Assembly: GCA_021815315.1 (NCBI GenBank)
Contig: JAKAHB010000002.1
Span: 6,427 to 70,426 of the forward strand
DNA: 64,000 bases
Source of the DNA: a bacterium
GTDB lineage: Bacteria; Patescibacteriota; Minisyncoccia; Portnoybacterales; JAKAHB01
Reading direction: 5' to 3'
The notes below the pieces were generated by a model. The model did no database searches, was not told where the DNA came from, and saw only the letters and a list, made by a program, of their open reading frames with translations. A program made the position numbers and the translations under genes. This document shows, piece after piece, positions 9,505-57,872 of this stretch. The number at the start of each line of letters is the position of its first letter. Positions within the stretch are counted from its first letter, which is position 1.

Positions 9505-9661
9505 TTTGTTTGGCAAGGCACTACCTGCAAGCCTCAGAAGGCGGTCCGACTAGCGGTTCCTTCCAAAATTAACAGCTACTGGCGAGAGAGTTAGGAGGGT
9601 TTTCTCTGCTTTGGCCACTCGCAGGTAGAGCGCTGCCAACAAAACTTTATCTTGTATTTGA
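9505..9661 (-). ncRNA. candidate small RNA, about 150 nt, with a GC-rich structured core
   Basis: Driven by the consensus promoter at 9668-9695. The core (9512-9625) is closed by an 8-bp helix CUACCUGC/GCAGGUAG and has internal hairpins. I see no convincing ORF and could not assign it to a known family. Confidence 0.3.
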
Positions 9662-9667
9662 TACTGT

Positions 9668-9695
9668 ATTATAGCAGAATAAAACATTTTGTCAA
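9668..9695 (-). promoter_or_regulatory. sigma-70-like promoter TTGACA-16-TATAAT
   Basis: Minus-strand reading gives TTGACAaaatgttttattctgcTATAAT. Confidence 0.5.
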
Positions 9696-9733
9696 GCGTA
9701 AGGCACTTCTTTGTCTTCTCTCCGAAAAACTGG

Positions 9734-9762
9734 TAAAAAAACCGCGGGCGTTGCACCCGCGG
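9734..9762 (-). terminator. intrinsic terminator of the GC-rich ORF at 9776-10195
   Basis: ccgcggg-cgttgca-cccgcgg hairpin with a U-run on the minus strand (plus-strand aaaaaaa at 9734-9741). Confidence 0.7.
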
Positions 9763-9775
9763 CACCAATTCAGGT

Positions 9776-10195
9776 TCAGGCATCAAGGCCTGAACGTTTT
9801 TTTTCCGGCTCGGCCGGTTTTGGCACCGCCGGGCAGATGATAACCCCGGCGTAGTGCCCCTCCTTGAAGAACAACTCCGGCTCCTGGAGGGGCGGGAAGT
9901 TGAACCTTTTTTCCAGCGCCTCCATGAGGAGCTGGGACTCGCTCCTCCCTTCTTTTTCTCCCCCCTCCCCCGAGAACGGGATGGCCCACTTCTTGCCCAT
10001 TTCGCCCATTTCGATTTCGTAGACGTTGTAGGCAAGAATCAACGTCTTCTTGCCGTCATTATCAAGGTGGAGCGTGATCCTCAGCTGCCCTATCGGCTCT
10101 TCACCGACCAGCTCCCCGGGGTCGGCCGAAACGAGCCCACCGCAGATCACCAGCAGGGCCAAGACGATCCCCACGACCACCAGAAACTTTTTCAT
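9776..10195 (-). CDS. hypothetical secreted/lipoprotein-like protein in a GC-rich cassette
   Basis: 139 aa with N-terminal signal peptide MKKFLVVVGIVLALLVICGG. SD GGGAGG 4 nt upstream. The segment is roughly 60% GC and uses GCC/CTG/GAC-type codons, unlike its neighbours. An alternative frame (9550-10035) is judged spurious. Confidence 0.5.
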   Translation of the reverse strand: MKKFLVVVGIVLALLVICGGLVSADPGELVGEEPIGQLRITLHLDNDGKKTLILAYNVYEIEMGEMGKKWAIPFSGEGGEKEGRSESQLLMEALEKRFNFPPLQEPELFFKEGHYAGVIICPAVPKPAEPEKKRSGLDA

Positions 10196-10315
10196 GACTC
10201 CCTCCCTTTACCAGTTCCAGCTGCACCGCAGGTCCCGCTCTTGGCGCCCACGATGCCTCCTCGCGATAGTCGCCCGGTTTTCCAGCCAATGTTTTTTCAG
10301 CAAAAGTTTGCTTCT

Positions 10316-10344
10316 ATTAAAAACTTTATCCTTGATTTTGTCAA
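10316..10344 (-). promoter_or_regulatory. sigma-70-like promoter TTGACA-17-TTTAAT for the 9776-10195 ORF
   Basis: Minus-strand reading gives TTGACAaaatcaaggataaagttTTTAAT, followed by a GC-rich leader of about 110 nt. Confidence 0.45.
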
Positions 10345-10384
10345 CGGCTTTGTGCTAGGATAGCTTAGCGTTGATCTTTTTTAA

Positions 10385-12322
10385 GTGAAAAGCAATCCAA
10401 ATAAAAATCTGCTTGTTGCCGCCATTACCCCCCAATTTTTGGAGCGGGACGTTTTGTGGTTTCAAAAAAACGAAAAGGGCCTGCGTCAAGAAATAGCCGC
10501 GAGCACTTTTCTGGGCCGCGGTTTGATCAGCCTGGAAATAAATCAACAGGTTAATCTCTTTGAGCTTCTAAAAAAACTAACCGACTTTGGCTACGAGCGC
10601 GTCCAGACCTTAAGCGGCCCCGGAGAATTTTTACAACAAGGCGGCAGCCTGCAAATTTTCCCCGTTAACCAGGAACAACCCTGGCAAATAGAATTTAAGG
10701 GTAAAGAAATTGAAACCCTCGCGCCTCTTGGGCTTGAACGCCTCAAAGAAACGAAAACCTTCAAGCTCAAGTCAATCAAAACCGAGGGCCTGGCGCGGAT
10801 CCTCAAAGAAAACGACTACGCCGTGCATCTGGATCATGGCATCGGCATTTATAAGGGAGTGATTGAAAGAAACCGGGAAAAATATTTTTTGCTGGCCTAC
10901 GCCAGAAACGACAAATTACTTGTGCCGCTGAAACTGGAAGAAAAAATCTCGCCCTATGTCGGGCTGGAAAAACCGATTGTGCACCGGCTCGGCGGCAGTC
11001 TGTGGCGCAACACCAAGCGCAAAGCCAAAGAAGACACCGTTAAATTCGCCCAGCAGTTGCTCGAACTCTATGCCGCTCGCGAACAAAGCCAAGGACACGC
11101 TTTTCCTAAAGAAACTTGGATGGAGAAAGAACTGGCCGCCGATTTTCCTTATCAAGAGACGCCCGACCAAGAGAAAGCCATCGCCGAAGTTTTTTGCGAT
11201 ATGGAAAAAGAAGCAGCTATGGATCATTTGGTTTGCGGCGATGTCGGCTTTGGCAAGACCGAAGTCGCTTTACGCGCCGCTTTTAAAGCGGTCCTGGCTG
11301 GGAAACAAGCGGCCATTCTGGCTCCAACCACAATTCTGGCCAAACAACATTGGGAAACTTTTAAAGCTCGGCTGGAAAAATTCAGCGTCCGCGCCGCTTT
11401 GCTCTCTCGCCTTACTCCCCAAAAAGAGCAGCCGCGAATTATTGAAGATTTAAACGCGGGCAAAATTGATATAGTCATTGGCACCCATCGCTTAATCCAA
11501 AAAGATGTCTCCTTTAAAGACTTGGGACTGTTGGTTATAGACGAAGAACAGCGATTTGGAGTCAAACAAAAAGAAAAACTTAAAACCCTGAAAGCCAGTG
11601 TTGATGTTTTGAGTCTCTCGGCCACTCCCATTCCCCGGACCCTGCACTTGGCGCTGGCCGGTTTGCGCCGCATTTCGCAAATTACCACTCCGCCGCTGGG
11701 ACGCCGAGCTATCAAAACTTTCGTTCTGCCCTCCAACCAAAAAATCGTCGCTCAAGCAATTAATTTTGAACTGCAGAGAGGGGGTCAGGTTTATTTTTTG
11801 CACAACCGCGTCGCCACCATTGAGGCGCAAGCGCGGCAACTCAAAAAACTTTTTCCTCAAGCGAAAATCGCCCGTATCCACGGGAGGCTCAACGAGCGGG
11901 AAATGACAAGGATTATTGACGATTTCAAAAATAAGAAAATTGATATTTTGGTGGCCACCACCATTATAGAAAACGGTCTTGATTTTCCCGCTGTTAACAC
12001 CTTGCTTGTCGCCGATGCGAGCCGTTTGGGACTAGCCCAGAGCTATCAGCTCCGCGGCCGCGTCGGCCGCTCTGATCTTCAAGCCTTTGCCTATTTTCTC
12101 TATCCGGCCAAACGTTTGACCCAAAAAGCGACCCAGCGCCTGGACGCCCTGCGGGAAGCCCAAAGTTTGGGTTCGGGTTACAATCTGGCGTTGCGCGATT
12201 TGGAAATTCGCGGCGCTGGCAACATCCTGGGCCGCGAACAATCGGGGGCTCTCAATACCGTGGGGCTAAATTTGTATTATCAAATGTTAAGCGAAACGAT
12301 TGAAGAATTGAGGGGGAAATAG
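10385..12322 (+). CDS. mfd: transcription-repair coupling factor Mfd, short form
   Basis: Helicase motif I (LVCGDVGFGKTEVALRAAF) and the TRG motif (QLRGRVGRS) match Mfd. At 645 aa it appears to lack the UvrB-homology N-terminal domains and the C-terminal D7. Confidence 0.8.
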   Translation: MKSNPNKNLLVAAITPQFLERDVLWFQKNEKGLRQEIAASTFLGRGLISLEINQQVNLFELLKKLTDFGYERVQTLSGPGEFLQQGGSLQIFPVNQEQPWQIEFKGKEIETLAPLGLERLKETKTFKLKSIKTEGLARILKENDYAVHLDHGIGIYKGVIERNREKYFLLAYARNDKLLVPLKLEEKISPYVGLEKPIVHRLGGSLWRNTKRKAKEDTVKFAQQLLELYAAREQSQGHAFPKETWMEKELAADFPYQETPDQEKAIAEVFCDMEKEAAMDHLVCGDVGFGKTEVALRAAFKAVLAGKQAAILAPTTILAKQHWETFKARLEKFSVRAALLSRLTPQKEQPRIIEDLNAGKIDIVIGTHRLIQKDVSFKDLGLLVIDEEQRFGVKQKEKLKTLKASVDVLSLSATPIPRTLHLALAGLRRISQITTPPLGRRAIKTFVLPSNQKIVAQAINFELQRGGQVYFLHNRVATIEAQARQLKKLFPQAKIARIHGRLNEREMTRIIDDFKNKKIDILVATTIIENGLDFPAVNTLLVADASRLGLAQSYQLRGRVGRSDLQAFAYFLYPAKRLTQKATQRLDALREAQSLGSGYNLALRDLEIRGAGNILGREQSGALNTVGLNLYYQMLSETIEELRGK

Positions 12323-12345
12323 CATCTCAGCCAATTTCTCTGACG

Positions 12346-13332
12346 TCAAAAAGCCTCGTTTCTTGAGACAAGTCTTAGTTTTGTTCCTTCTATCCGGCCC
12401 GTGTTTAAAAAGGTGTTTAAATGTTCCCTAGAATTAAGCGTGTTGTTTGGCACCAACCCTAAAATTATTGCGATAATTTGGTCTGTTGTTTGAATAAACA
12501 TTTTCATTTCAGGAGTTTTTACAGCGGTACTCATTTTCCCAAAGTGTACCAACCTATTTCGAGCGTTTACCAACAACCGAACATTATTCCTTTGTTTATT
12601 ATTAAGACTGATGCCTAAATATTTATATAAAACATAGGATATTTTAACTTCCGATTTTGTATCTTTAAGATCTTTATCCGAAAGCCACTCTCTATTTTCA
12701 ATAGAGAATAATGACTCCCAAATTGTCCATGCGGTAAGGAAAGATTTTTCTATAATCTGCCATCGGATCATGTCCCTATATAAAATAAGAAAATATCCGT
12801 CATCGTATATATCCCTCCATTTGTTGGTTGAAACATGCTCTATCACCTTTTCAATTGCTGCATCAAATCCGGAAGAAACCCATTCCATGTCCCAAATAGG
12901 AATTCCGTTGGCAGTTTCCGGGTCAATAATTTCACCAGTGGCCTTGACCTTAAATTTTGAATTTAAATTTATAGACAACCTCAACTGACCGCCAAAAGCC
13001 GTATGCGGACGATAATCTTCTATTATTGGTTCCTCTCCGTTCCAGTCCTTAGCAAAAACATTTCTGCCAGTAAAAATAGAAAGAAAAAATAGAATGTCGT
13101 GAAGCTTTGTAAGAGCGGCATTTTCAAAGATCAAGGTTGCTTTTGCCTCTGTATCTGGGATACTCACTGTTGCGGTTATTTGATGGCTGCCTGTTATTTG
13201 GGTGACACTGTAATTAGGCATTAACCCGTACGCTTCGTCATAATTTGAAACTGCGTCAAAGACGTAATTACAAATATTTAACTGACGTACACCAGTAGGA
13301 AATTCTAAATTGTAAATAGATTTGTTCTCCAT
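12346..13332 (-). CDS. hypothetical two-domain protein with a C-terminal HEPN-like motif (Rx4-6H)
   Basis: 328 aa in an AT-rich segment. The C-terminal helical region contains NARNRLVHFG, which fits 'RNxxxH'. No other recognisable motifs. Confidence 0.45.
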   Translation of the reverse strand: MENKSIYNLEFPTGVRQLNICNYVFDAVSNYDEAYGLMPNYSVTQITGSHQITATVSIPDTEAKATLIFENAALTKLHDILFFLSIFTGRNVFAKDWNGEEPIIEDYRPHTAFGGQLRLSINLNSKFKVKATGEIIDPETANGIPIWDMEWVSSGFDAAIEKVIEHVSTNKWRDIYDDGYFLILYRDMIRWQIIEKSFLTAWTIWESLFSIENREWLSDKDLKDTKSEVKISYVLYKYLGISLNNKQRNNVRLLVNARNRLVHFGKMSTAVKTPEMKMFIQTTDQIIAIILGLVPNNTLNSREHLNTFLNTGRIEGTKLRLVSRNEAF

Positions 13333-13446
13333 AATTAATAAATTTTAATTCCATACCTCTCTATGGTGGGCTATTAATCTAGCCATACTTTATAAAACTT
13401 TTTTATCATTCTGCTAATTTCATCTTATCACTTTTATCCAGCAAAC

Positions 13447-13480
13447 AAAAAGTGCGAAAAGCAGCCCAAGCCTTGGGCTC
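13447..13480 (-). terminator. putative terminator after the anti-sigma-like gene
   Basis: gcccaag-cc-ttgggc hairpin followed by a U-rich tract on the minus strand. Confidence 0.45.
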
Positions 13481-13516
13481 GGACTGTTAAAAACACCCCT
13501 TTTTGAACAACTGCTT

Positions 13517-14275
13517 TTAATTGGGCAGGGTCATCACCTCGTGACACGCGCCCTGCGGGCATTCTTCTTCCATCATCATCCGCTGGCAAGCCCGCTGTAA
13601 AATTCTGACTCTTTGCACTATAAACCTGTCGGCCTGCTTGTTCCCTCGAATTTTTAGGCGCAGTCCCGGCCGCAGAGGCGGCAAATCCAAGGACTGGCTG
13701 GCCCGTTGAACTGGCCAGGAAACATTGTCGGAGTCTCGCAAAACAAAAGAGTCGCTATTTTTCATTTCTATAATTTGTCCCAGCAGAAGACCTTTGTTGG
13801 GTTGTTGCCAAAGATGTCTTTCCGGAAAAGTCAGATCGCAATATTGAGGAATACTGCGAGCCAAAATATCGTCCACCTTTTGCCCCAAGCCGGCGTAGAA
13901 AAACACGGCTCCCAAAGCAAAACTGGCTGCGACACTGCCGCTAAAAATAATCCAAGAACGATAACGGTAGCCGCCTTCGGTGTGCCGGAAATTATATGAA
14001 CTCAACAGCCAAAAAAGTCCCAAACAAACCAGCCAGATATAGGGGAGATTAACCAGCAATAAATTCCAAAAGCTTCTGTCCACGTACAAATAGAGATCCC
14101 AATCGTTATCGGCTAACATAAAAACCACCACCGAAAAAGCCAGACTGCCAATCACCACCAAGACCCCAAAGCCCAACCACAACAAAGAGTCTTTAAGCAA
14201 AAATTGCCAGCGCGGTTTTGGCTCCAGATGCTTCTTTTTTATTTCCTTAAAAATTTTCTCGCTGATGTTGTCCAT
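13517..14275 (-). CDS. membrane protein co-transcribed with the ECF sigma factor (candidate anti-sigma factor)
   Basis: 252 aa with about 4 predicted TM helices. It sits 4 nt downstream of the sigma gene on the same strand. Confidence 0.4.
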   Translation of the reverse strand: MDNISEKIFKEIKKKHLEPKPRWQFLLKDSLLWLGFGVLVVIGSLAFSVVVFMLADNDWDLYLYVDRSFWNLLLVNLPYIWLVCLGLFWLLSSYNFRHTEGGYRYRSWIIFSGSVAASFALGAVFFYAGLGQKVDDILARSIPQYCDLTFPERHLWQQPNKGLLLGQIIEMKNSDSFVLRDSDNVSWPVQRASQSLDLPPLRPGLRLKIRGNKQADRFIVQRVRILQRACQRMMMEEECPQGACHEVMTLPN

Positions 14276-14279
14276 AACT

Positions 14280-14867
14280 TTAAAAATCCAAATTTAGTTT
14301 TTGGGCCTCTTCTTTGAATTTCTTTTTGGCCCGGCTTATCAAGGTAGCGACCGTTCCCATCGGTTTTTTCAAAATGTCGGAAATTTCCGTATAGTTTTTA
14401 TCTTCCAAAAATTTCAGCACCAATACTTCGCGATATTTTCCGTCCAAGCGGGATAAAACTCTTTTAATTTCTCCCGTTTTTTCTTTCCAGTGTATTTCTT
14501 TGTTTAAGTCCAAGTCGGAAGCCAATCTGCTTAGCAGCTCGTCGTTGTCGCTCAAATTATCCGCCTGGGGCCGAGCCTTTTGGCGGCGAAAAGCGCTGAT
14601 AACTTCGTTATGGGTAATACGATAGATCCAGGATGAAAATTTCAACGAAGGGTCAAAATTATTAAGATTCAAATAAGCTTTCAAAAAAACATCCTGCAAA
14701 ATATCTTCGGCGTCCTGCTCGTTGGACTGGGAAATTCGGTGGATGTATCTTTTGAGCTTGGCTTCGTATCTTTGCATCAAGCACAGGTAAAAATCCTCTT
14801 CCCGCAAGGAAAGAGTTGCCAGCTCTTCGTCGGTCTTTTGTCGCAAATAATCATTATTGATTCGCAT
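14280..14867 (-). CDS. ECF-type RNA polymerase sigma-70 family factor
   Basis: About 195 aa from the internal ATG at 14865-14867, with region 2 (DILQDVFLKAYLNLNNF) and a region-4 HTH (YTEISDILKKPMGTVATLISRA). The upstream part of the ORF-track ORF is Arg/Gly-rich read-through of the GC-rich cassette. Confidence 0.85.
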   Translation of the reverse strand: MRINNDYLRQKTDEELATLSLREEDFYLCLMQRYEAKLKRYIHRISQSNEQDAEDILQDVFLKAYLNLNNFDPSLKFSSWIYRITHNEVISAFRRQKARPQADNLSDNDELLSRLASDLDLNKEIHWKEKTGEIKRVLSRLDGKYREVLVLKFLEDKNYTEISDILKKPMGTVATLISRAKKKFKEEAQKLNLDF

Positions 14868-15061
14868 GACTATACCTTGTTTTATACGCGTTTCCCCTTC
14901 TTTTCTTTCTTTATTATATAATGCCGGCCTTGCCCGTTGTAAAGACCCGACCTTATGGCGGTTCGGACGGAAGACAATTTCCGCCTTGGTGAACTTTGGC
15001 CCGGTATTTGTTTCTTGCCGCTTGTCTGTCCGTCCCAGCGAACGGCTTGTGGGGAATAAAT

Positions 15062-15093
15062 AAAAAAAGCGGGGGCCGCGTGTGCGACCCCCT
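15062..15093 (-). terminator. intrinsic terminator of the small Cys-containing ORF
   Basis: gggggtcgcacacgcggccccc hairpin followed by a U7 run on the minus strand. Confidence 0.65.
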
Positions 15094-15148
15094 TGGGTTG
15101 TTCCTCCAGAAGCGCGAGGCCTGTGGCGCTCCACCAGGCCAGGGGGGC

Positions 15149-15376
15149 CTAGGTGGTGGCGATGCTGGCCAGGACGTTGGCCAAAAGCTCCTGCTTGATG
15201 CGCACGGCGCCCTCGCCGTGCCCGATCTTGCCTTCCAACTCCGTGGCGGCGCCCACGATGATGAGGTCGCCGGTGGCCTCGTCCTTGAACACGGCCGGGC
15301 AGCAGGAGCTGCCGCCGCACCTCTGATGCAGCGGGGTTAAGTTGGTCAGGCTGACTTTCTTCTTAACGGCGCTCAT
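15149..15376 (-). CDS. small hypothetical Cys-containing protein (75 aa) in a GC-rich cassette
   Basis: Reads MSAVKKKVSLTNLTPLHQRCGGSSCCPAVFKDEATGDLIIVGAATELEGKIGHGEGAVRIKQ.... A strong SD (GAGGAGG) sits immediately upstream, with a 7-bp hairpin abutting it. The segment is about 65% GC. Confidence 0.45.
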   Translation of the reverse strand: MSAVKKKVSLTNLTPLHQRCGGSSCCPAVFKDEATGDLIIVGAATELEGKIGHGEGAVRIKQELLANVLASIATT

Positions 15377-15428
15377 AGAAACCTCCTCGCGGACCCTGCA
15401 AAGGTCCGCCGTTTTGGGTTGATTTTTT

Positions 15429-15457
15429 CATTATAGGCATTATCCCAAACTTGTCAA
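15429..15457 (-). promoter_or_regulatory. sigma-70-like promoter TTGACA-17-TATAAT for the small Cys ORF
   Basis: Minus-strand reading gives TTGACAagtttgggataatgccTATAAT. Confidence 0.5.
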
Positions 15458-15488
15458 GGGCCCACTCCAAAAAACAGTTCCGCTCTTT

Positions 15489-15527
15489 CATTTGTATCTT
15501 CCACACCTAGGCGTGGAAGATACAAAT
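15489..15527. repeat. near-perfect palindrome, copy 1 of 2
   Basis: catttgtatcttccacacctaggcgtggaagatacaaatg in a divergent promoter region. It is a paralogue of the palindrome at 51666-51702. Confidence 0.6.
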
Positions 15528-15562
15528 GAATAGAAAAATAAATAATGTGTTAAAATATTTTT

Positions 15563-16657
15563 ATGCACCCATCCGCTCAATATTTTCATGCTTTTAATTC
15601 CTTCAATGAAAAAATAGGCCCGGTTAGATTCAAAAAAATAAAAACTTATTTTGGCGACCTGCCCACCGCCTGGAAGGGTTCGGCGGAAGACTTTGTCGCC
15701 GCCGGACTGGAAGAAAGCTTGGCTCAAGAAATCGTCTTGCGCCGCCAGAATTTTGACCCCGAGACGGAACTGCAAAAAGTTTTGGACCAAAACATTGATG
15801 TTTTAACCGTTGAAGACGACGCTTATCCCCTCTTACTAAAAGAAATTCACCAGCCTCCTTTTATCCTCTACAAACAAGGCGGTTTTGAGCTACAAGACGA
15901 ATTTGCTTTGGCCATTGTCGGCTCCAGAAAATTAACAGCCTATGGCCAGCAAGCCGCTACTAAACTGGCCCGAGAATTGGCGCAGGCGGGGCTGACCATT
16001 GTTTCCGGTCTGGCTCAAGGAATTGACACTTTGGCTCATCGCCAAGCGCTTGAGGTTGGCAGCCGGACTCTGGCGGTCATCGGTTCGGGCCTTGACCAGC
16101 CCAGCATTTTCCCGCCCGGTAACCGGCATTTGGCCCAAGAGATAGCGGCCAAAGGCTGTTTGCTTTCCGAATACCCACCTAAAAGTTTGGCCTTGCCGCA
16201 TCATTTTCCGGCGCGCAACCGTATTATAAGCGGACTGGCCCTGGGAACCTTGATCGTTGAAGCCTCAATAAAGTCCGGCGCGCTGATCACCGCCCGCCAC
16301 GCCCTGGAGCAAAACCGCGAAGTCTTTGCCGTCCCCGGGCCCATCACCTCCCCCAATTCCCTTGGCCCCAACAACCTGATTAAACTAGGCGCCAAAGCGG
16401 TTACTTGCGCCCAAGACATTTTGGACGAATTAAACCTGCAATCGCTCAAACAAAACATCCAAGCGCGAGAAATTTTGCCCGACACCAAAGAAGAGGCTCT
16501 AATTCTGGAAGTTCTTATTGACGAACCCGTTCATGTTGACAAAATAATTGAGTTGACTAAACTTGACACAGCCACGATCAACTCCGTTTTGTCAATGATG
16601 GAAATAAAAGGCAAAATTAAAAACTTGGGAGGGATGAATTATATTAAGAATTTTTAA
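15563..16657 (+). CDS. dprA: DNA processing protein DprA (Smf)
   Basis: Rossmann-like DprA core (LAVIGSGLD...PARNRIISGL...ALITAR). Confidence 0.9.
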   Translation: MHPSAQYFHAFNSFNEKIGPVRFKKIKTYFGDLPTAWKGSAEDFVAAGLEESLAQEIVLRRQNFDPETELQKVLDQNIDVLTVEDDAYPLLLKEIHQPPFILYKQGGFELQDEFALAIVGSRKLTAYGQQAATKLARELAQAGLTIVSGLAQGIDTLAHRQALEVGSRTLAVIGSGLDQPSIFPPGNRHLAQEIAAKGCLLSEYPPKSLALPHHFPARNRIISGLALGTLIVEASIKSGALITARHALEQNREVFAVPGPITSPNSLGPNNLIKLGAKAVTCAQDILDELNLQSLKQNIQAREILPDTKEEALILEVLIDEPVHVDKIIELTKLDTATINSVLSMMEIKGKIKNLGGMNYIKNF

Positions 16658-29685: not shown

Positions 29686-30162
29686 TTAAGACTTTTTTAG
29701 CGATTTTTTTAATTTTAACCTCAAGAGCAAACCTAGTCTGTCAATCATCATCTTGCCATCCAGGTGGTCAATCTCGTGTTGAAAAACCCGGGCCGGCAAA
29801 CCGCTAGCCTTAATTTGGCATTTCTTTCCTTGGCGATCTAAAAACTCAATTTCTATTTTATCAGGCCTTTCCAAAAAAATAAAAACGCCGGGCAGACTCA
29901 AACAACCCTCTTCCATTTCCACTTTTTTGCGACTTTTTTTGGTGATTTTGGGATTGAACAGGACGCGCAAGTCGCCGTCAACTTCAGCCACGAAAAATCT
30001 TTTCTTTACGCCAACCTGGGGAGCGGCCAGTCCCGCGCCCTTGTTTGCTCTCATTGTTTTTATCATTTCCTCAACCAACCCATCCAAAGTCAAAAGTTCC
30101 TCTTTGGCAACAGGAACACATTTCTGCTTTAAAATTTTATCACCATATCTCTTGATTATCAT
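29686..30162 (-). CDS. def: peptide deformylase
   Basis: Carries the GLAAPQVG, EGCLSLPG and QHEIDHLDG motifs. Start taken at ATG 30160-30162. Confidence 0.9.
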   Translation of the reverse strand: MIIKRYGDKILKQKCVPVAKEELLTLDGLVEEMIKTMRANKGAGLAAPQVGVKKRFFVAEVDGDLRVLFNPKITKKSRKKVEMEEGCLSLPGVFIFLERPDKIEIEFLDRQGKKCQIKASGLPARVFQHEIDHLDGKMMIDRLGLLLRLKLKKSLKKS

Positions 30163-30239
30163 GCGAAATCTAACTAATGCTAAAAATGCGAAATGCAAAA
30201 AATAAAAATTTTGCGAAATCTAACTAATGCTAAATACAA
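30161..30239. repeat. tandem pair of about 30-bp repeats (left inverted-repeat arm) flanking the GxxExxY gene
   Basis: tgcgaaatctaactaatgctaaa occurs twice (30161-30183 and 30210-30232). It is the inverse complement of the repeats at 30661-30744. Confidence 0.6.
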
Positions 30240-30242
30240 AAC

Positions 30243-30641
30243 CTACTCTTTAGCGGCGGAATTCAAAATTCTCTTTGGCTGTACAAATTTCTGATGAAAA
30301 TTAACAATAATTCCTAACTTTTTGTTAAGACAAACTAAATAACGTTTAATCTGATAATAATCGCTCCTTGCCAAAAATCTTTTTGTTTTTACTTCCAAGA
30401 CAATTTTATCCTCAATTAAAAAATCTACTCTATTTCTATTTTTTTCTCCTTCAAAAGAAGGGGGCAAGATTTTTTCTCTTTCATAGATAACTTTGGCGTT
30501 TTTCAGTTTTTGCTCAATACAATCGCAATATTGCTTTTCGTTCAAATAGTCACCCAGCTCCATTTTAGCCTGAAACAAAATGCCGTTTATTTGATAAGAA
30601 AGTGCTGGATATATAACTTTAGTAAAATTACTACCCTCCAT
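30243..30641 (-). CDS. GxxExxY family protein (PD-(D/E)XK nuclease-like)
   Basis: 132 aa with the NGILFQAKMELGDYLNEKQY...VDFLIEDKIVLEVK...GIIVNF pattern typical of the GxxExxY family. Confidence 0.7.
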   Translation of the reverse strand: MEGSNFTKVIYPALSYQINGILFQAKMELGDYLNEKQYCDCIEQKLKNAKVIYEREKILPPSFEGEKNRNRVDFLIEDKIVLEVKTKRFLARSDYYQIKRYLVCLNKKLGIIVNFHQKFVQPKRILNSAAKE

Positions 30642-30660
30642 AAATTATTCTTTCATTTTA

Positions 30661-30744
30661 TTTTTGCATTTTTAGCATTATCACAAAGGTTTCGCCAAAT
30701 TATTATTTTATTTTCGCATTTTTAGCATTATTACAAAGGTTTCG
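30661..30744. repeat. tandem pair of about 35-bp repeats (right inverted-repeat arm)
   Basis: tttgcatttttagcattatcacaaaggtttcgc and tttcgcatttttagcattattacaaaggtttcgc. Both share aatgctaaaaatgcgaaa with the left arm in inverted orientation. Confidence 0.6.
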
Positions 30745-30746
30745 CT

Positions 30747-31568
30747 TTAGATGTTAAACAATTCTCTCGCGTTCTCAAACGTAGCTTCCGAAATCTTTTC
30801 AACCGGCAAATTTTTTATCTCCGCCAATTTTTCCACCACATATTTTACATACAAAGGCTCGTTTCTTTTACCACGAAATGGTACTGGCGTCAAATAGGGG
30901 CAGTCTGTTTCGGTCAACAGATTACCAAGGTCAACATTGCTTATAACTTTATCATAATCGCGAGCAAAAGTGATAATCCCGTTAAAGCCCAGGTAAAAAC
31001 CCAGCTTCACATACCTCTCGGCTTGAGCCAGCCGACCGGAGAAAGAATGGACCACGCCTCTTAGTCTGTTCCCGTATTCCTTTTGTTTTTCTTCTAAAAT
31101 TTCCAGCACGTCATTATGCGCGTCGCGACAGTGAACAATTATCGGTTTTTGATGTTCCGCCGCGAGGTTTATCTGCTCCAAAAACAATTTTTTCTGTTGT
31201 TCTTTGTTGCTGATGTTGTGATAATAATCCAAGCCAATTTCTCCCACGGCAACCGTTTTGGGATGCGAAATCAACGCCTCATATTTTTCTCGGCTAAATT
31301 CCTCTTCTCTGGTTTCAAATTCAACTTCTTCGTTTTTATCAACGCTCGTTTGGAACTTTTCCGAGCCCAGATGGATCGGGTGCATCCCGATAGCTGCATA
31401 GACTCCCCGTTCGCGTTGTTGGGCGATCTTGACCGCCCGCGCGCTGGTTGAATATTGCGAGCCAACATTAACCAGCCAAACATTATCGGCCAGGGCTCTT
31501 TTTATTACTTCTTCGCCATCATTTTTGAAGGCGTTGAAATTAACATGGGCGTGAGTGTCAATTAGCAT
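30747..31568 (-). CDS. tatD: TatD family metal-dependent DNase/hydrolase
   Basis: Starts MLIDTHAHVNF, with the HPIH and GEIGLDY TatD motifs. Confidence 0.9.
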   Translation of the reverse strand: MLIDTHAHVNFNAFKNDGEEVIKRALADNVWLVNVGSQYSTSARAVKIAQQRERGVYAAIGMHPIHLGSEKFQTSVDKNEEVEFETREEEFSREKYEALISHPKTVAVGEIGLDYYHNISNKEQQKKLFLEQINLAAEHQKPIIVHCRDAHNDVLEILEEKQKEYGNRLRGVVHSFSGRLAQAERYVKLGFYLGFNGIITFARDYDKVISNVDLGNLLTETDCPYLTPVPFRGKRNEPLYVKYVVEKLAEIKNLPVEKISEATFENARELFNI

Positions 31569-57176: not shown

Positions 57177-57872
57177 TTATTTTGAAAAGTTCGCCAATTT
57201 TTTTCCCAGTTTGCTTCCCTTAAAATAAAATCTGAAAAAAACTCCGGTAAACAAATAGAACGCCCAATGAACGATATAGCTGTAAACAACACCGGCATTA
57301 AAATAATAAATCAGGGCGGGAAAAATCAGGCCCGCCAAAATGGAAGCGCCGATAAAATATTCGCCGAAAGCGAAACCAAAGAAAATTAAAATAGGCACAT
57401 GCACAAAGGCAAAAATCAAGGCGAAAGAAGCGATCAAGCGACCATCACCCAGTCCTTGGCGAACCAACCAGGAAACCAGCAACAAGACCATCACCTGCTG
57501 AAAAAATATCTCAACAGACCTTGAAAAAATCTGGCGATAATCCATTTTCAAAAAAGTAAGACTATGGTTGTCGCTCGTTAATTTTTCCACGACCCGGGGC
57601 ATCTGTTTGGACCGGTTAGCTAGCCAGTGAATTATAATGTTAACCACAAAAAATCCTCCCAAAACAACCAGGGAAACGACGTTAATTTGTCGGACAAAGT
57701 CAAAAAAATAATTTTTAAAAACATAGATGACACCCAGCGAAGCCGCCAGAAAATAAATTGAAGTAACCAAGAAATTATTAATATAATCTATTCCTCGCTT
57801 GACAAAAAAGATGTAGAAAATACCCAAGACCAGAAACCAAATAAAAATCCACGTGAATAAGTTTAGGGCCAT
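57177..57872 (-). CDS. hypothetical polytopic membrane protein
   Basis: 231 aa with about 7 TM helices and FxxxH / HxxxN-like motifs, but not in canonical CPBP order. Confidence 0.35.
   Translation of the reverse strand: MALNLFTWIFIWFLVLGIFYIFFVKRGIDYINNFLVTSIYFLAASLGVIYVFKNYFFDFVRQINVVSLVVLGGFFVVNIIIHWLANRSKQMPRVVEKLTSDNHSLTFLKMDYRQIFSRSVEIFFQQVMVLLLVSWLVRQGLGDGRLIASFALIFAFVHVPILIFFGFAFGEYFIGASILAGLIFPALIYYFNAGVVYSYIVHWAFYLFTGVFFRFYFKGSKLGKKLANFSK

What the first reader, a model, noticed from the sequence alone, without database searches (positions are those of the whole stretch)
12346..13516. AT-rich single-gene island encoding a HEPN-motif (RNxxxH) protein: candidate stand-alone abortive-infection/defence RNase
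The 12.35-13.5 kb segment is much more AT-rich than its flanks (mfd on one side, the sigma/anti-sigma pair on the other). That shift usually marks accessory, horizontally acquired DNA. Its only gene encodes a 328-aa protein with two parts: an N-terminal mixed beta-rich region and a C-terminal helical region. The C-terminal part contains '...LLVNARNRLVHFGK...', which fits the Rx4-6H HEPN catalytic motif in its common 'R-N-x-x-x-H' form. HEPN RNases fused to variable N-terminal sensor domains are the basis of many Abi/defence and toxin systems, including the Abi_2/AbiD-F, ApeA-like, Swt1-like and Cas13/Csm6 HEPN families. No partner antitoxin, methylase or ATPase is adjacent, so this would be a one-protein system. 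I could not place it in a named family by eye, so it may be undescribed.
Basis: partly seen in the sequence, partly recalled or inferred. Interest (0 to 1): 0.75.

Follow-up and report, generated by a model that had tools for sequence, protein, structure and literature searches.

The report
Orphan-sensor HEPN RNase defence candidate
An AT-rich, horizontally acquired gene in a candidate-phyla-radiation bacterium encodes a 328-aa protein with a predicted RNA-cutting HEPN domain fused to an unrecognisable N-terminal domain, and its relatives sit in anti-phage defence islands, so it is most likely an uncharacterised single-protein phage-defence RNase.

Summary
ORF 12346-13332 (-) encodes 328 aa and has the lowest GC of 51 long ORFs in the window (0.365, z = -3.0). 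It lies in a 3.2-kb insertion that breaks a pth-mfd-dprA-topA backbone conserved in related Parcubacteria.

It is not canonical ApeA. It is half the length, gives no hit to PADLOC's ApeA model, and aligns to ApeA only over 24 non-significant columns on the catalytic helix. The N-terminal 155 residues have no sequence or fold relative.

The family is small (246 clusters at 50% identity), patchy across at least 7 lineages, and under purifying selection (dN/dS 0.105). In 8 of 10 other contexts it sits beside restriction-modification, Abi, SIR2, Shedu or recombinase genes, with no conserved partner.

The best reading is a stand-alone, infection-activated HEPN RNase: a new variant of a known kind. 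RNase activity, trigger and defence are all inferred, not shown.

The parts
12346..13332 (-). Complete CDS of a 328-aa two-domain protein (orphan N-terminal domain plus HEPN domain)
   Evidence: ORF list. The identical protein and DNA occur in 6 independently assembled contigs. dN/dS is 0.105 against the 77%-identical homologue. AlphaFold2 gives pLDDT 89.8 and pTM 0.87.
12868..13332 (-). N-terminal alpha/beta domain (residues 1 to about 155), the putative sensor or regulatory domain. Invariant residues are G48, T53, D79, F93, D106, R108 and S120. Conserved motifs are YNLEFP, TGSHQITA and ADHRxH.
12400..12867 (-). C-terminal HEPN-fold helical domain (residues about 156-311), the putative RNase effector
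12544..12561 (-). Codons for R258-N259-R-L-V-H263, the Rx4H (RNxxxH) HEPN catalytic motif at the C-terminal end of helix 245-264
   Evidence: Invariant in 43 of 43 aligned homologues. 123 of 124 full-length family members keep Rx4H. hhalign places it on Ec1ApeA R521-N522-x3-H526, but the alignment is non-significant. The Ec1ApeA motif RNKITH and loss of defence in R521A are reported in 10.64898/2026.03.20.713152.
13333..13516 (-). AT-rich upstream intergenic region (GC 0.342), the presumed promoter region of the HEPN gene. No convincing sigma-70-type promoter was found.
   Evidence: Composition. The promoter scan gave only 9-of-12 matches, and the count (7 sites) was within about 1.5 sd of the shuffle mean of 3.3.
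13462..13486 (-). Terminator-like hairpin (11-bp GC-rich stem, U-rich tail) after the anti-sigma gene. It separates the HEPN gene from the sigma/anti-sigma operon.
   Evidence: RNA fold: dG -24.3 kcal/mol, z = -2.85 against shuffles.
12353..12369 (-). Weak terminator-like hairpin at the 3' end of the HEPN gene, in the 23-bp gap to the convergent mfd
   Evidence: Consensus scan. The stem is only 5 bp, so this is weak.
12323..15562 (.). The full 3.2-kb insertion into the conserved mfd-dprA junction: HEPN gene, anti-sigma gene (13517-14275), ECF-type sigma gene (14280-14867) and a GC-rich spacer (14868-15562)
   Evidence: In related Parcubacteria dprA starts 28-60 bp after mfd (L025, L028, L033, L034, L035). 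None of the 80 loci has a homologue of the HEPN, sigma or anti-sigma genes. No flanking att-like repeats were found.

Best explanation
The gene encodes a stand-alone defence RNase that is normally held inactive.

Proposed mechanism:
1. The C-terminal HEPN domain dimerises, as HEPN RNases do, and forms a composite metal-independent active site from the invariant R258, N259 and H263 of two subunits.
2. The family-specific N-terminal alpha/beta domain packs against the HEPN domain and keeps the enzyme off. Its invariant D79, D106, R108 and S120 cluster is probably at this interface.
3. An infection-associated cue, either a small nucleotide-like ligand or a phage nucleic acid or protein, is sensed.
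4. The activated enzyme cleaves RNA. By analogy the targets are tRNA anticodon loops and/or phage RNA. This stops translation and phage replication, either abortively or directly.

The gene travels horizontally as a one-gene cassette between defence islands of uncultivated bacteria. In this Parcubacteria-like genome it landed in a variable spot between mfd and dprA.

Shown here: the HEPN fold, the invariant motif, purifying selection, the insertion and patchy distribution, and the defence-island neighbourhoods.
Inferred: RNase activity, dimerisation, regulation by the N-domain, the trigger, the RNA target, and the defence phenotype.
For: - Motif: RNx3H is invariant in 43 of 43 homologues, and 123 of 124 full-length members keep Rx4H. 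It has the same form as Ec1ApeA's RNKITH, whose R521A mutant loses defence.
- Sequence family: HEPN_Apea is the best Pfam model. 28 of 43 members hit it, and UniRef labels two homologues accordingly.
- The gene is functional: dN/dS is 0.105, and the gene is nucleotide-identical in 6 contigs.
- The gene is accessory:
  - It has the lowest GC of 51 ORFs.
  - It is absent from 80 related mfd loci, several of which show an empty site.
  - Homologues of 32-77% identity occur in Patescibacteria, WS6, WOR-3, Chloroflexi, Nitrospirota, Omnitrophica and Deltaproteobacteria.
  - Homologues are AT-rich relative to their hosts in 6 of 7 cases.
- Neighbourhoods: 8 of 10 non-window contexts carry defence or mobile-element genes within 8 kb.
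  - MmeI-type RM, Shedu SduA_C and DUF3800.
  - Integrase and serine recombinase.
  - Type I RM with Abi_C, a C5-methylase/MutH pair, and PIN.
  - PemK, Schlafen-AlbA, and PLD-SNF2 with an MmeI-type methylase.
  - A type III RM operon with Fic/RhuM.
  - AbiEii.
  - AbiTii and a Dpd cluster.
  - SIR2_2.
- Stand-alone: no neighbour is shared across these contexts.
- Fixed architecture: about 110 full-length representatives match end to end at 300-340 aa.
- Interdomain coupling: the D106/R108 loop has pLDDT 83-87 in the full-length model but below 50 when the N-domain is modelled alone.
- Precedent: single-protein HEPN defence RNases activated through a non-catalytic domain are ApeA and DARNA.
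Against: - No experiment exists for any member of the family.
- The window protein's own Pfam HEPN_Apea score (18.8 bits) is below the gathering cut-off of 24.4.
- No PADLOC, NCBIfam or PHROG model recognises the protein.
- In this genome it is not in a defence island. Its neighbours are housekeeping genes and a sigma/anti-sigma pair.
- Two homologue contexts are among metabolic genes.
- The defence-island association is a tally of 10 hand-inspected contexts without a matched background rate.
- Dimerisation and the geometry of the R/H site were not tested.
- No promoter was identified.
Confidence: 0.6

Rival explanations
1. It is a selfish toxin or addiction-type HEPN RNase. Examples would be an orphan or intramolecularly neutralised toxin-antitoxin module, or an effector of inter-bacterial or host-symbiont conflict. 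Under this reading it persists by post-segregational killing or by stress-induced growth arrest, and not by sensing phage.
For: [quoted passage not shown] Some homologues neighbour toxin-antitoxin genes: PemK and ParE. The gene is mobile and AT-rich. CPR bacteria are episymbionts, for which conflict effectors are plausible (established knowledge).
Against: No MNT or other conserved small partner gene lies next to it in any of 11 contexts. It has no signal peptide or secretion-associated neighbours. The most frequent neighbours are RM, Abi, SIR2 and Shedu genes, which are typical of anti-phage islands. The boundary between toxin-antitoxin and abortive-infection systems is also blurred, so this is partly a difference of emphasis.
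Confidence: 0.17
2. It is a HEPN-fold protein that is not a nuclease, for example a nucleotide- or ligand-binding or adaptor protein like the KNTase C-terminal domain or the sacsin HEPN domain, or a regulator tied to the adjacent ECF sigma/anti-sigma pair.
Against: The R-N-x3-H motif that characterises catalytic HEPN RNases is invariant across the family. A terminator-like hairpin separates the gene from the anti-sigma gene. None of the 10 other contexts has an adjacent sigma/anti-sigma pair. Composition differs sharply between the HEPN gene (GC 0.365) and the anti-sigma gene (0.470).
Confidence: 0.1
3. It is a housekeeping RNA-processing enzyme of CPR bacteria, for example a Las1-like or tRNA/rRNA maturation RNase. 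Under this reading the AT-richness is incidental.
Against: The gene is absent from all 80 related mfd loci, several with an intact empty site. The family has only 246 clusters at 50% identity among 1.84 billion representatives. Its distribution across unrelated phyla is patchy and in non-syntenic, defence-rich contexts. It is the strongest compositional outlier in the window.
Confidence: 0.03

Closest known systems
ApeA (Gao_Ape; Ec1ApeA WP_000706972.1 and homologues), a single-protein HEPN anti-phage system
   Same: - Both are single-gene systems with no partner.
- Both have a C-terminal HEPN domain with the same R-N-x3-H form of the catalytic motif (RNRLVH here, RNKITH in Ec1ApeA).
- Both have an N-terminal region with no recognisable homology.
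- The best Pfam model for this family is HEPN_Apea.
- Both have mobile, island-associated distributions.
[quoted passage not shown]
   Different: - Size: 328 aa against about 600 aa.
- Architecture: two domains (alpha/beta N-domain plus HEPN) against three mostly helical domains (N, Mid, and a split HEPN with insertions).
- PADLOC: none of 43 members hits the ApeA model, which scores 1386 bits on Ec1ApeA.
- hhalign, family against an ApeA alignment: only 24-25 columns align, on the catalytic helix, at E 0.03-0.04 and probability 1-2%. For the N-domain the probability is 0.2%.
- The ring oligomers (doughnut-shaped decamers or dodecamers) and the deoxydinucleotide pocket of ApeA cannot be assumed here.
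HepT/MntA-type minimal HEPN toxins (for example PDB 7AE2, 5YEP, 8XDJ)
   Different: HepT proteins are single-domain proteins of about 130-145 aa. They are neutralised by an adjacent MNT nucleotidyltransferase antitoxin through AMPylation. Here no MNT gene is present in any context, and a covalently attached 155-aa N-domain is fixed in the family.
DARNA (single-protein HEPN tRNase activated by phage-SSB-bound ssDNA)
   Same: It is a stand-alone HEPN defence RNase whose non-catalytic domain senses the infection cue. Its active site is occluded until activation, and it cleaves tRNA.
   Different: The domain order is reversed: DARNA has an N-terminal HEPN domain (1-159) and a C-terminal all-helical Pds5-like domain (160-456), and it forms a dodecamer. 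No sequence relationship to the window protein was seen.
Other HEPN abortive-infection and CRISPR-ancillary RNases (AbiA C-terminal HEPN, AbiV, Csm6/Csx1, RnlA/LsoA, PrrC/RloC)
   Different: Their sensor or partner modules are different: a reverse transcriptase or polymerase in AbiA, CARF in Csm6/Csx1, an ABC ATPase in PrrC, and the Dmd or RnlB antitoxins for LsoA and RnlA. PADLOC models for these give only scattered weak hits to a few family members.

Membership tests
HEPN superfamily (fold level) | Four-helix up-and-down HEPN core | tested here: met
HEPN superfamily (catalytic RNase subset) | Conserved Rx4-6H motif on the catalytic helix | tested here: met
   R258-N-R-L-V-H263 lies at the end of helix 245-264. 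It is invariant in 43 of 43 homologues, and 123 of 124 full-length members keep Rx4H. The motif alone occurs in 59% of shuffles, so conservation is the evidence.
HEPN superfamily (catalytic RNase subset) | Dimerisation that forms a composite active site with R and H of two subunits juxtaposed | not testable with these tools
   No multimer prediction and no access to model coordinates were available.
Pfam PF18739 HEPN_Apea (ApeA-like HEPN clade) | Score at or above the gathering threshold (24.4 bits) against the family HMM | tested here: inconclusive
   The window protein scores 18.8 bits, E = 0.0023, below the cut-off. 28 of 43 homologues hit at E <= 0.01, best 2.4e-6. Four homologues carry precomputed PF18739 hits. 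UniRef names P0033 and P0034 'Apea-like HEPN domain-containing protein'. Ec1ApeA itself does not hit this model at E <= 0.01, so the model is a loose umbrella.
ApeA anti-phage system (Gao_Ape; Ec1ApeA-like) | Full-length homology to the ApeA protein of about 600 aa (PADLOC model PDLC02157) | tested here: not met
   Positive control: Ec1ApeA hits PDLC02157 at 1386 bits over positions 1-601. None of the 43 family members hits it at E <= 1. In hhalign, A1 against ApeA alignment A4 aligns only 24 columns, E 0.043, probability 1.2%.
ApeA anti-phage system (Gao_Ape; Ec1ApeA-like) | ApeA N-terminal and Mid domains, which with the HEPN domain form the conserved ligand pocket | tested here: not met
   No Pfam hit, including ApeA_NTD1, for 25 N-domain sequences at E <= 10. 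hhalign of N-domain A2 against A4 gives probability 0.2%. The predicted N-domain is a 155-aa alpha/beta fold, against helical N (1-198) plus Mid (199-309) domains in Ec2ApeA.
ApeA anti-phage system (Gao_Ape; Ec1ApeA-like) | Single-gene system with an R-N-x3-H HEPN motif that is required for defence | tested here: inconclusive
   The single-gene organisation and the same motif form are met. The requirement for defence cannot be tested computationally.
ApeA anti-phage system (Gao_Ape; Ec1ApeA-like) | Decameric or dodecameric doughnut assembly and tRNA anticodon-loop cleavage | not testable with these tools
   This needs biochemistry or cryo-EM. The features are described for ApeA in 10.64898/2026.01.26.701840.
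HepT/MntA (HEPN/MNT) type II toxin-antitoxin | Adjacent MNT nucleotidyltransferase antitoxin gene | tested here: not met
   No nucleotidyltransferase or conserved small partner lies next to the gene in the window or in 10 other contexts.
Defence-island resident (guilt by association) | Recurrent co-location with known defence genes in unrelated genomes | tested here: met
   8 of 10 non-window contexts have RM, Abi, SIR2, Shedu, toxin-antitoxin or recombinase genes within 8 kb. Two do not. No matched background rate was computed. The window copy itself is not in a defence island.

The most novel reading that the evidence does not exclude
The family is a previously unrecognised, minimal single-protein anti-phage system, about half the size of ApeA. 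Its orphan 155-aa N-terminal alpha/beta domain is a new sensor module. Through the invariant D79, D106, R108 and S120 cluster at the interface with the HEPN domain, it binds an infection-derived ligand or nucleic acid not yet known as an immune trigger and allosterically opens the RNase site. The family is concentrated in CPR/Patescibacteria and other uncultivated lineages, where few defence systems have been characterised.
Probability: 0.3. Interest if true: 0.65.

Novelty: new variant of a known kind. Interest (0 to 1): 0.45.

Why it matters
Single-protein HEPN RNases such as ApeA and DARNA are current models for how one polypeptide both senses infection and executes immunity. Their triggers, deoxydinucleotides and SSB-presented ssDNA, were unexpected.

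This family offers a much smaller scaffold of about 320 aa, with a sensor domain that has no relative in Pfam or the PDB. It could therefore reveal a new trigger and a compact allosteric switch.

It also adds a candidate immune gene to CPR/Patescibacteria. These are tiny-genome episymbionts whose antiviral repertoire is poorly known, and current defence-annotation models miss the gene.

If the protein proves to be an ordinary HEPN toxin, the result is still a useful annotation for about 250 orphan protein clusters.

Tried and rejected
1. Single-sequence and profile searches of the PDB by sequence found nothing for the whole protein. For the N-domain they gave only noise.
3. NCBIfam, PADLOC and PHROGs gave no usable hits. 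The PADLOC Csm3 hit (E = 0.028) is treated as noise from a ferredoxin-like segment.
4. tblastn against the phage and plasmid collections found no match, so no vector was identified.
5. The HEPN-only profile search, meant to reach canonical ApeA, recovered only the same family. Canonical ApeA was obtained instead from a preprint supplement plus the E. coli genome collection.
6. DARNA was considered as a closer relative and rejected because its domain order is reversed.
7. The search for att-like or terminal repeats around the insertion gave only short chance-level matches.
8. The attempt to trace the anti-sigma gene in metagenomes, to date the insertion steps, found no relatives.
9. No convincing sigma-70-type promoter was found upstream.
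10. Rfam found no RNA element in or near the locus.
11. A functional link to the neighbouring sigma/anti-sigma pair was rejected. A terminator-like hairpin lies between them, composition differs, and no other context has such a pair (and the context calls).
12. The family members of about 260 aa were examined as a possible distinct architecture. They merely start at residue 47 or so and may be split or mis-called genes.
Full report
1. THE OBSERVATION

The ORF exists as described: 12346-13332 on the - strand, 328 aa, containing LLVNARNRLVHFGK.

Its AT-richness is real. In 400-bp windows, GC falls to 0.33-0.40 across the ORF against 0.46-0.53 on either side. Among 51 non-overlapping ORFs of at least 150 aa in the window (mean GC 0.455, sd 0.030), this ORF is the lowest: GC 0.365 (z = -3.0) and GC3 0.347 (z = -3.3). 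The 184-bp spacer upstream has GC 0.342.

The motif argument on its own is weak. An Rx4-6H motif appears in 59% of shuffles of this protein, and the narrower RNxxxH in 2.2%. What matters is conservation and structural context, covered next.

2. WHAT THE PROTEIN IS

Family and conservation
- A search of 5.8 billion proteins found 43 homologues of 32-77% identity, nearly all 300-340 aa and matching over the full length.
- In their alignment, R258, N259 and H263 are invariant. So are G48, T53, D79, F93, D106, R108 and S120 in the N-terminal half, and F198, W202, E206 and K230 in the C-terminal half.
- An exhaustive profile search of 1.84 billion cluster representatives found only 246 clusters at E <= 1e-3. 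About 110 are full length and match end to end, and one carries an N-terminal extension. The family is therefore small and its two-domain architecture is fixed.

Structure
- AlphaFold2 with the family alignment gives a confident model: pLDDT 89.8, pTM 0.87. Residues 1 to about 155 form an alpha/beta domain and residues 156-311 are helical. The motif lies at the end of helix 245-264.
- Foldseek against the PDB found nothing significant.

Sequence models
- Three Pfam HEPN models converge on the same region of the window protein. HEPN_Apea is the best at E = 0.0023, which is 18.8 bits against a cut-off of 24.4.
- 28 of 43 homologues hit HEPN_Apea, best 2.4e-6.
- UniRef labels two homologues 'Apea-like HEPN domain-containing protein'.

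The N-terminal domain is an orphan
- It has no Pfam family, including ApeA_NTD1, and no PDB sequence relative.
- The loop that carries the invariant D106 and R108 (residues 105-114) is confident in the full-length model (block means 83-87) but falls below 50 when the domain is modelled alone. This suggests that it packs against the HEPN domain.

3. IS IT ApeA?

No. Published work describes canonical ApeA as follows.
- It is about 600 aa, predominantly helical, with N-terminal, Mid and split-HEPN domains.
- It assembles into decamers or dodecamers.
- It cleaves tRNA anticodon loops.
- A second preprint shows that Ec1ApeA also cleaves ssRNA-phage genomes without killing the cell. Its motif is RNKITH, and R521A abolishes defence (10.64898/2026.03.20.713152).

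I recovered Ec1ApeA (WP_000706972.1) from an E. coli genome, using the first 160 nt printed in that preprint's supplement. I then used it in direct tests.
- PADLOC's ApeA model scores 1386 bits on Ec1ApeA, yet none of the 43 family members hits it at E <= 1.
- A profile-profile comparison of the family with a 17-sequence ApeA alignment aligns only 24-25 columns. These fall exactly on the catalytic helix (RNRLVH against RNKIAH), at E 0.03-0.04 and probability 1-2%.
- The N-domain shows nothing, with probability 0.2%.
- Ec1ApeA itself does not reach Pfam HEPN_Apea at E <= 0.01, so that Pfam model is a loose umbrella and not a test of ApeA membership.

DARNA, another single-protein HEPN tRNase, has the opposite domain order.

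The protein therefore belongs to the HEPN superfamily, is nearest to the ApeA-like clade, and shares the RNx3H motif form. It is a distinct family with its own N-terminal domain.

4. IS IT ACCESSORY AND MOBILE?

Yes.
- The identical gene (0 nucleotide differences) occurs in six independently assembled contigs, always between mfd and the sigma/anti-sigma pair. All of these represent the same organism.
- The 80 nearest mfd loci among 185,579 species genomes are 43-57% identical and are mostly Parcubacteria, Paceibacterota and related CPR lineages.
- A tblastn survey of those loci shows a conserved pth-mfd-dprA-topA backbone. dprA starts 28-60 bp after mfd in L025, L028, L033, L034 and L035. None of the 80 loci has a homologue of the HEPN, sigma or anti-sigma genes.
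- In the window, mfd ends at 12322 and dprA starts at 15563, so 3.2 kb is inserted. The insertion is compositionally mosaic: HEPN gene 0.365, anti-sigma 0.470, sigma 0.408, spacer 0.537. No flanking repeats were found.
- Other relatives carry different cargo at the same junction, so the junction is a variable spot.
- A terminator-like hairpin follows the anti-sigma gene: 11-bp stem, U tract, dG -24.3 kcal/mol, z = -2.85. This argues that the HEPN gene is its own transcription unit.
- The gene is under purifying selection: dN/dS is 0.105 against the 77% homologue.
- Homologues are AT-rich relative to their hosts in 6 of 7 cases, by up to -0.147.
- Homologues occur in Patescibacteria, WS6, WOR-3, Chloroflexi, Thermodesulfovibrionia, Omnitrophica and Deltaproteobacteria.

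5. GENOMIC COMPANY

Ten non-window contexts were inspected.
- P0003 (77% identical): between an MmeI-type RM gene and a small PycTM-like gene, Shedu SduA_C, DUF3800 and a recombinase.
- P0015: near an integrase and a serine recombinase.
- P0042: next to a type I RM system with an embedded Abi_C gene, a C5-methylase/MutH pair, and AAA and PIN genes. Two alternative left flanks were seen in two contigs.
- P0034: between PemK and Schlafen-AlbA genes and a PLD-SNF2 helicase with an MmeI-type methylase.
- P0020: at the end of a type III RM operon with Fic/RhuM and a Cas4-like nuclease, followed by a recombinase.
- P0198: near two AbiEii genes.
- P0233: followed by AbiTii and a Dpd (DndB/TGT/QueC) cluster.
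- P0023: just downstream of a SIR2_2 gene.
- P0033 and P0039: among metabolic genes. P0039 has an OLD-TOPRIM gene and ParE 4-7 kb away.

No neighbour recurs across these contexts, and spot checks of adjacent unknown genes gave no shared family. That makes 8 of 10 contexts with defence or mobile-element company and no conserved partner. I did not compute a matched background rate.

No member was found in the phage or plasmid collections or in PHROGs.

6. MECHANISM

The best-supported model is a stand-alone HEPN RNase that is normally held inactive.
- Shown: the fold, the catalytic-type motif and its invariance, selection, mobility and defence-island association.
- Inferred from established HEPN biology and from ApeA and DARNA:
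  - dimerisation to form a composite active site;
  - autoinhibition or sensing by the N-domain, with the invariant D79, D106, R108 and S120 residues as pocket candidates;
  - activation by an infection cue;
  - cleavage of tRNA and/or phage RNA.

Rivals:
- A selfish or toxin-antitoxin-like toxin, at confidence about 0.17. No antitoxin partner is seen.
- A non-catalytic HEPN protein or a sigma-linked regulator, at about 0.10. The invariant RNx3H, the terminator-like hairpin and the absence of sigma neighbours elsewhere argue against it.
- A housekeeping RNase, at about 0.03. The empty sites and the patchy distribution argue against it.

7. NOVELTY AND VERDICT

The effector domain and the overall logic (variable N-terminal domain plus HEPN, single gene, defence islands) are a known kind, anticipated by Anantharaman et al. 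2013 (PMC3710099) and exemplified by ApeA.

What is new:
- A compact, sharply bounded family that none of the four libraries scanned here (Pfam, NCBIfam, PADLOC, PHROGs) captures as its own model or system.
- An N-terminal domain without sequence or fold relatives.
- A concentration in CPR and other uncultivated lineages.

I rate it a new variant of a known kind with interest 0.45. It is a solid candidate that can be tested experimentally, but it is not conceptually surprising unless the N-domain turns out to sense a new kind of trigger.

Noticed in passing
window 12323-15562: The whole 3.2-kb stretch between mfd and dprA is an insertion relative to the pth-mfd-dprA-topA backbone of related Parcubacteria. 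Besides the HEPN gene it holds an ECF-type sigma factor (14280-14867), a 252-aa membrane anti-sigma-like protein with no Pfam hit and no relatives found in a metagenome scan (13517-14275), and a GC-rich spacer with small ORFs (14868-15562, GC 0.537). Whether these arrived together with the HEPN gene is unknown.
   Followed up: partly
window 15487-15530: A near-perfect palindrome (22-nt arms, 95% complementary, no loop) lies immediately upstream of dprA, at the right edge of the insertion. Its function is unknown; it could be an operator, a terminator or a recombination site.
   Followed up: no
window 30243-30641 (-): A 132-aa PD-(D/E)xK nuclease-superfamily ORF (Pfam PDDEXK_3, E = 1.5e-20) sits in the other strongly AT-rich kilobase of the window (30001-31000, GC 0.336), between a deformylase-like ORF and a TatD-like ORF. 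It is possibly another small acquired gene.
   Followed up: partly
window 9600-10400: A GC-rich patch (up to 0.585 in a 0.45 genome) upstream of mfd holds a 139-aa ORF with an N-terminal hydrophobic segment (9776-10195, -) and several overlapping ORFs on both strands. It has no Rfam hit.
   Followed up: no
window 57177-57872 (-): A 231-aa ORF with the second-lowest GC in the window (0.382, z = -2.4) and no Pfam hit. It is another possible accessory gene.
   Followed up: partly
L007 8938-9411, also L008-L010: In the closest homologue's loci (77% identity) a 157-aa gene overlaps the HEPN gene's stop codon by 8 nt. It carries a weak precomputed PycTM (Pycsar transmembrane effector) hit, but my own Pfam scan at E <= 0.01 found nothing. 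The gene is absent from the window and from the other contexts. It could be a lineage-specific partner.
   Followed up: partly
L103 377-1150; L104 7846-8795: Family members of about 257-273 aa start at the conserved TGSHQITA strand and lack the first 46 or so residues. In L104 a 52-aa ORF abuts the start. These may be frameshifted or mis-called genes and not a shorter architecture.
   Followed up: partly
L047 7992-11767; L023 2005-3273: The mfd-dprA junction carries other cargo in some relatives. L047 has about 3.8 kb with small secreted or membrane proteins and, judged by eye only, a BrnT/BrnA-like toxin-antitoxin pair. L023 has a YchF-like GTPase. This suggests a recurrently variable site in Parcubacteria.
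   Followed up: partly
L107 3001-4806 (E. coli NZ_CP025892.1): Ec1ApeA, the founding ApeA protein, gives no hit to any Pfam model at E <= 0.01, including PF18739 HEPN_Apea, and none to NCBIfam, although PGAP names it 'HEPN family anti-phage protein ApeA'. In this genome it lies between an IS2 transposase and a MobQ relaxase.
   Followed up: yes
window 10385-12322 (+): The Mfd homologue is only 645 aa, whereas my recollection is that typical bacterial Mfd is about 1,100-1,200 aa. Its close relatives in Parcubacteria are similarly short (the full query length is matched), so this is a lineage-wide reduced form.
   Followed up: no
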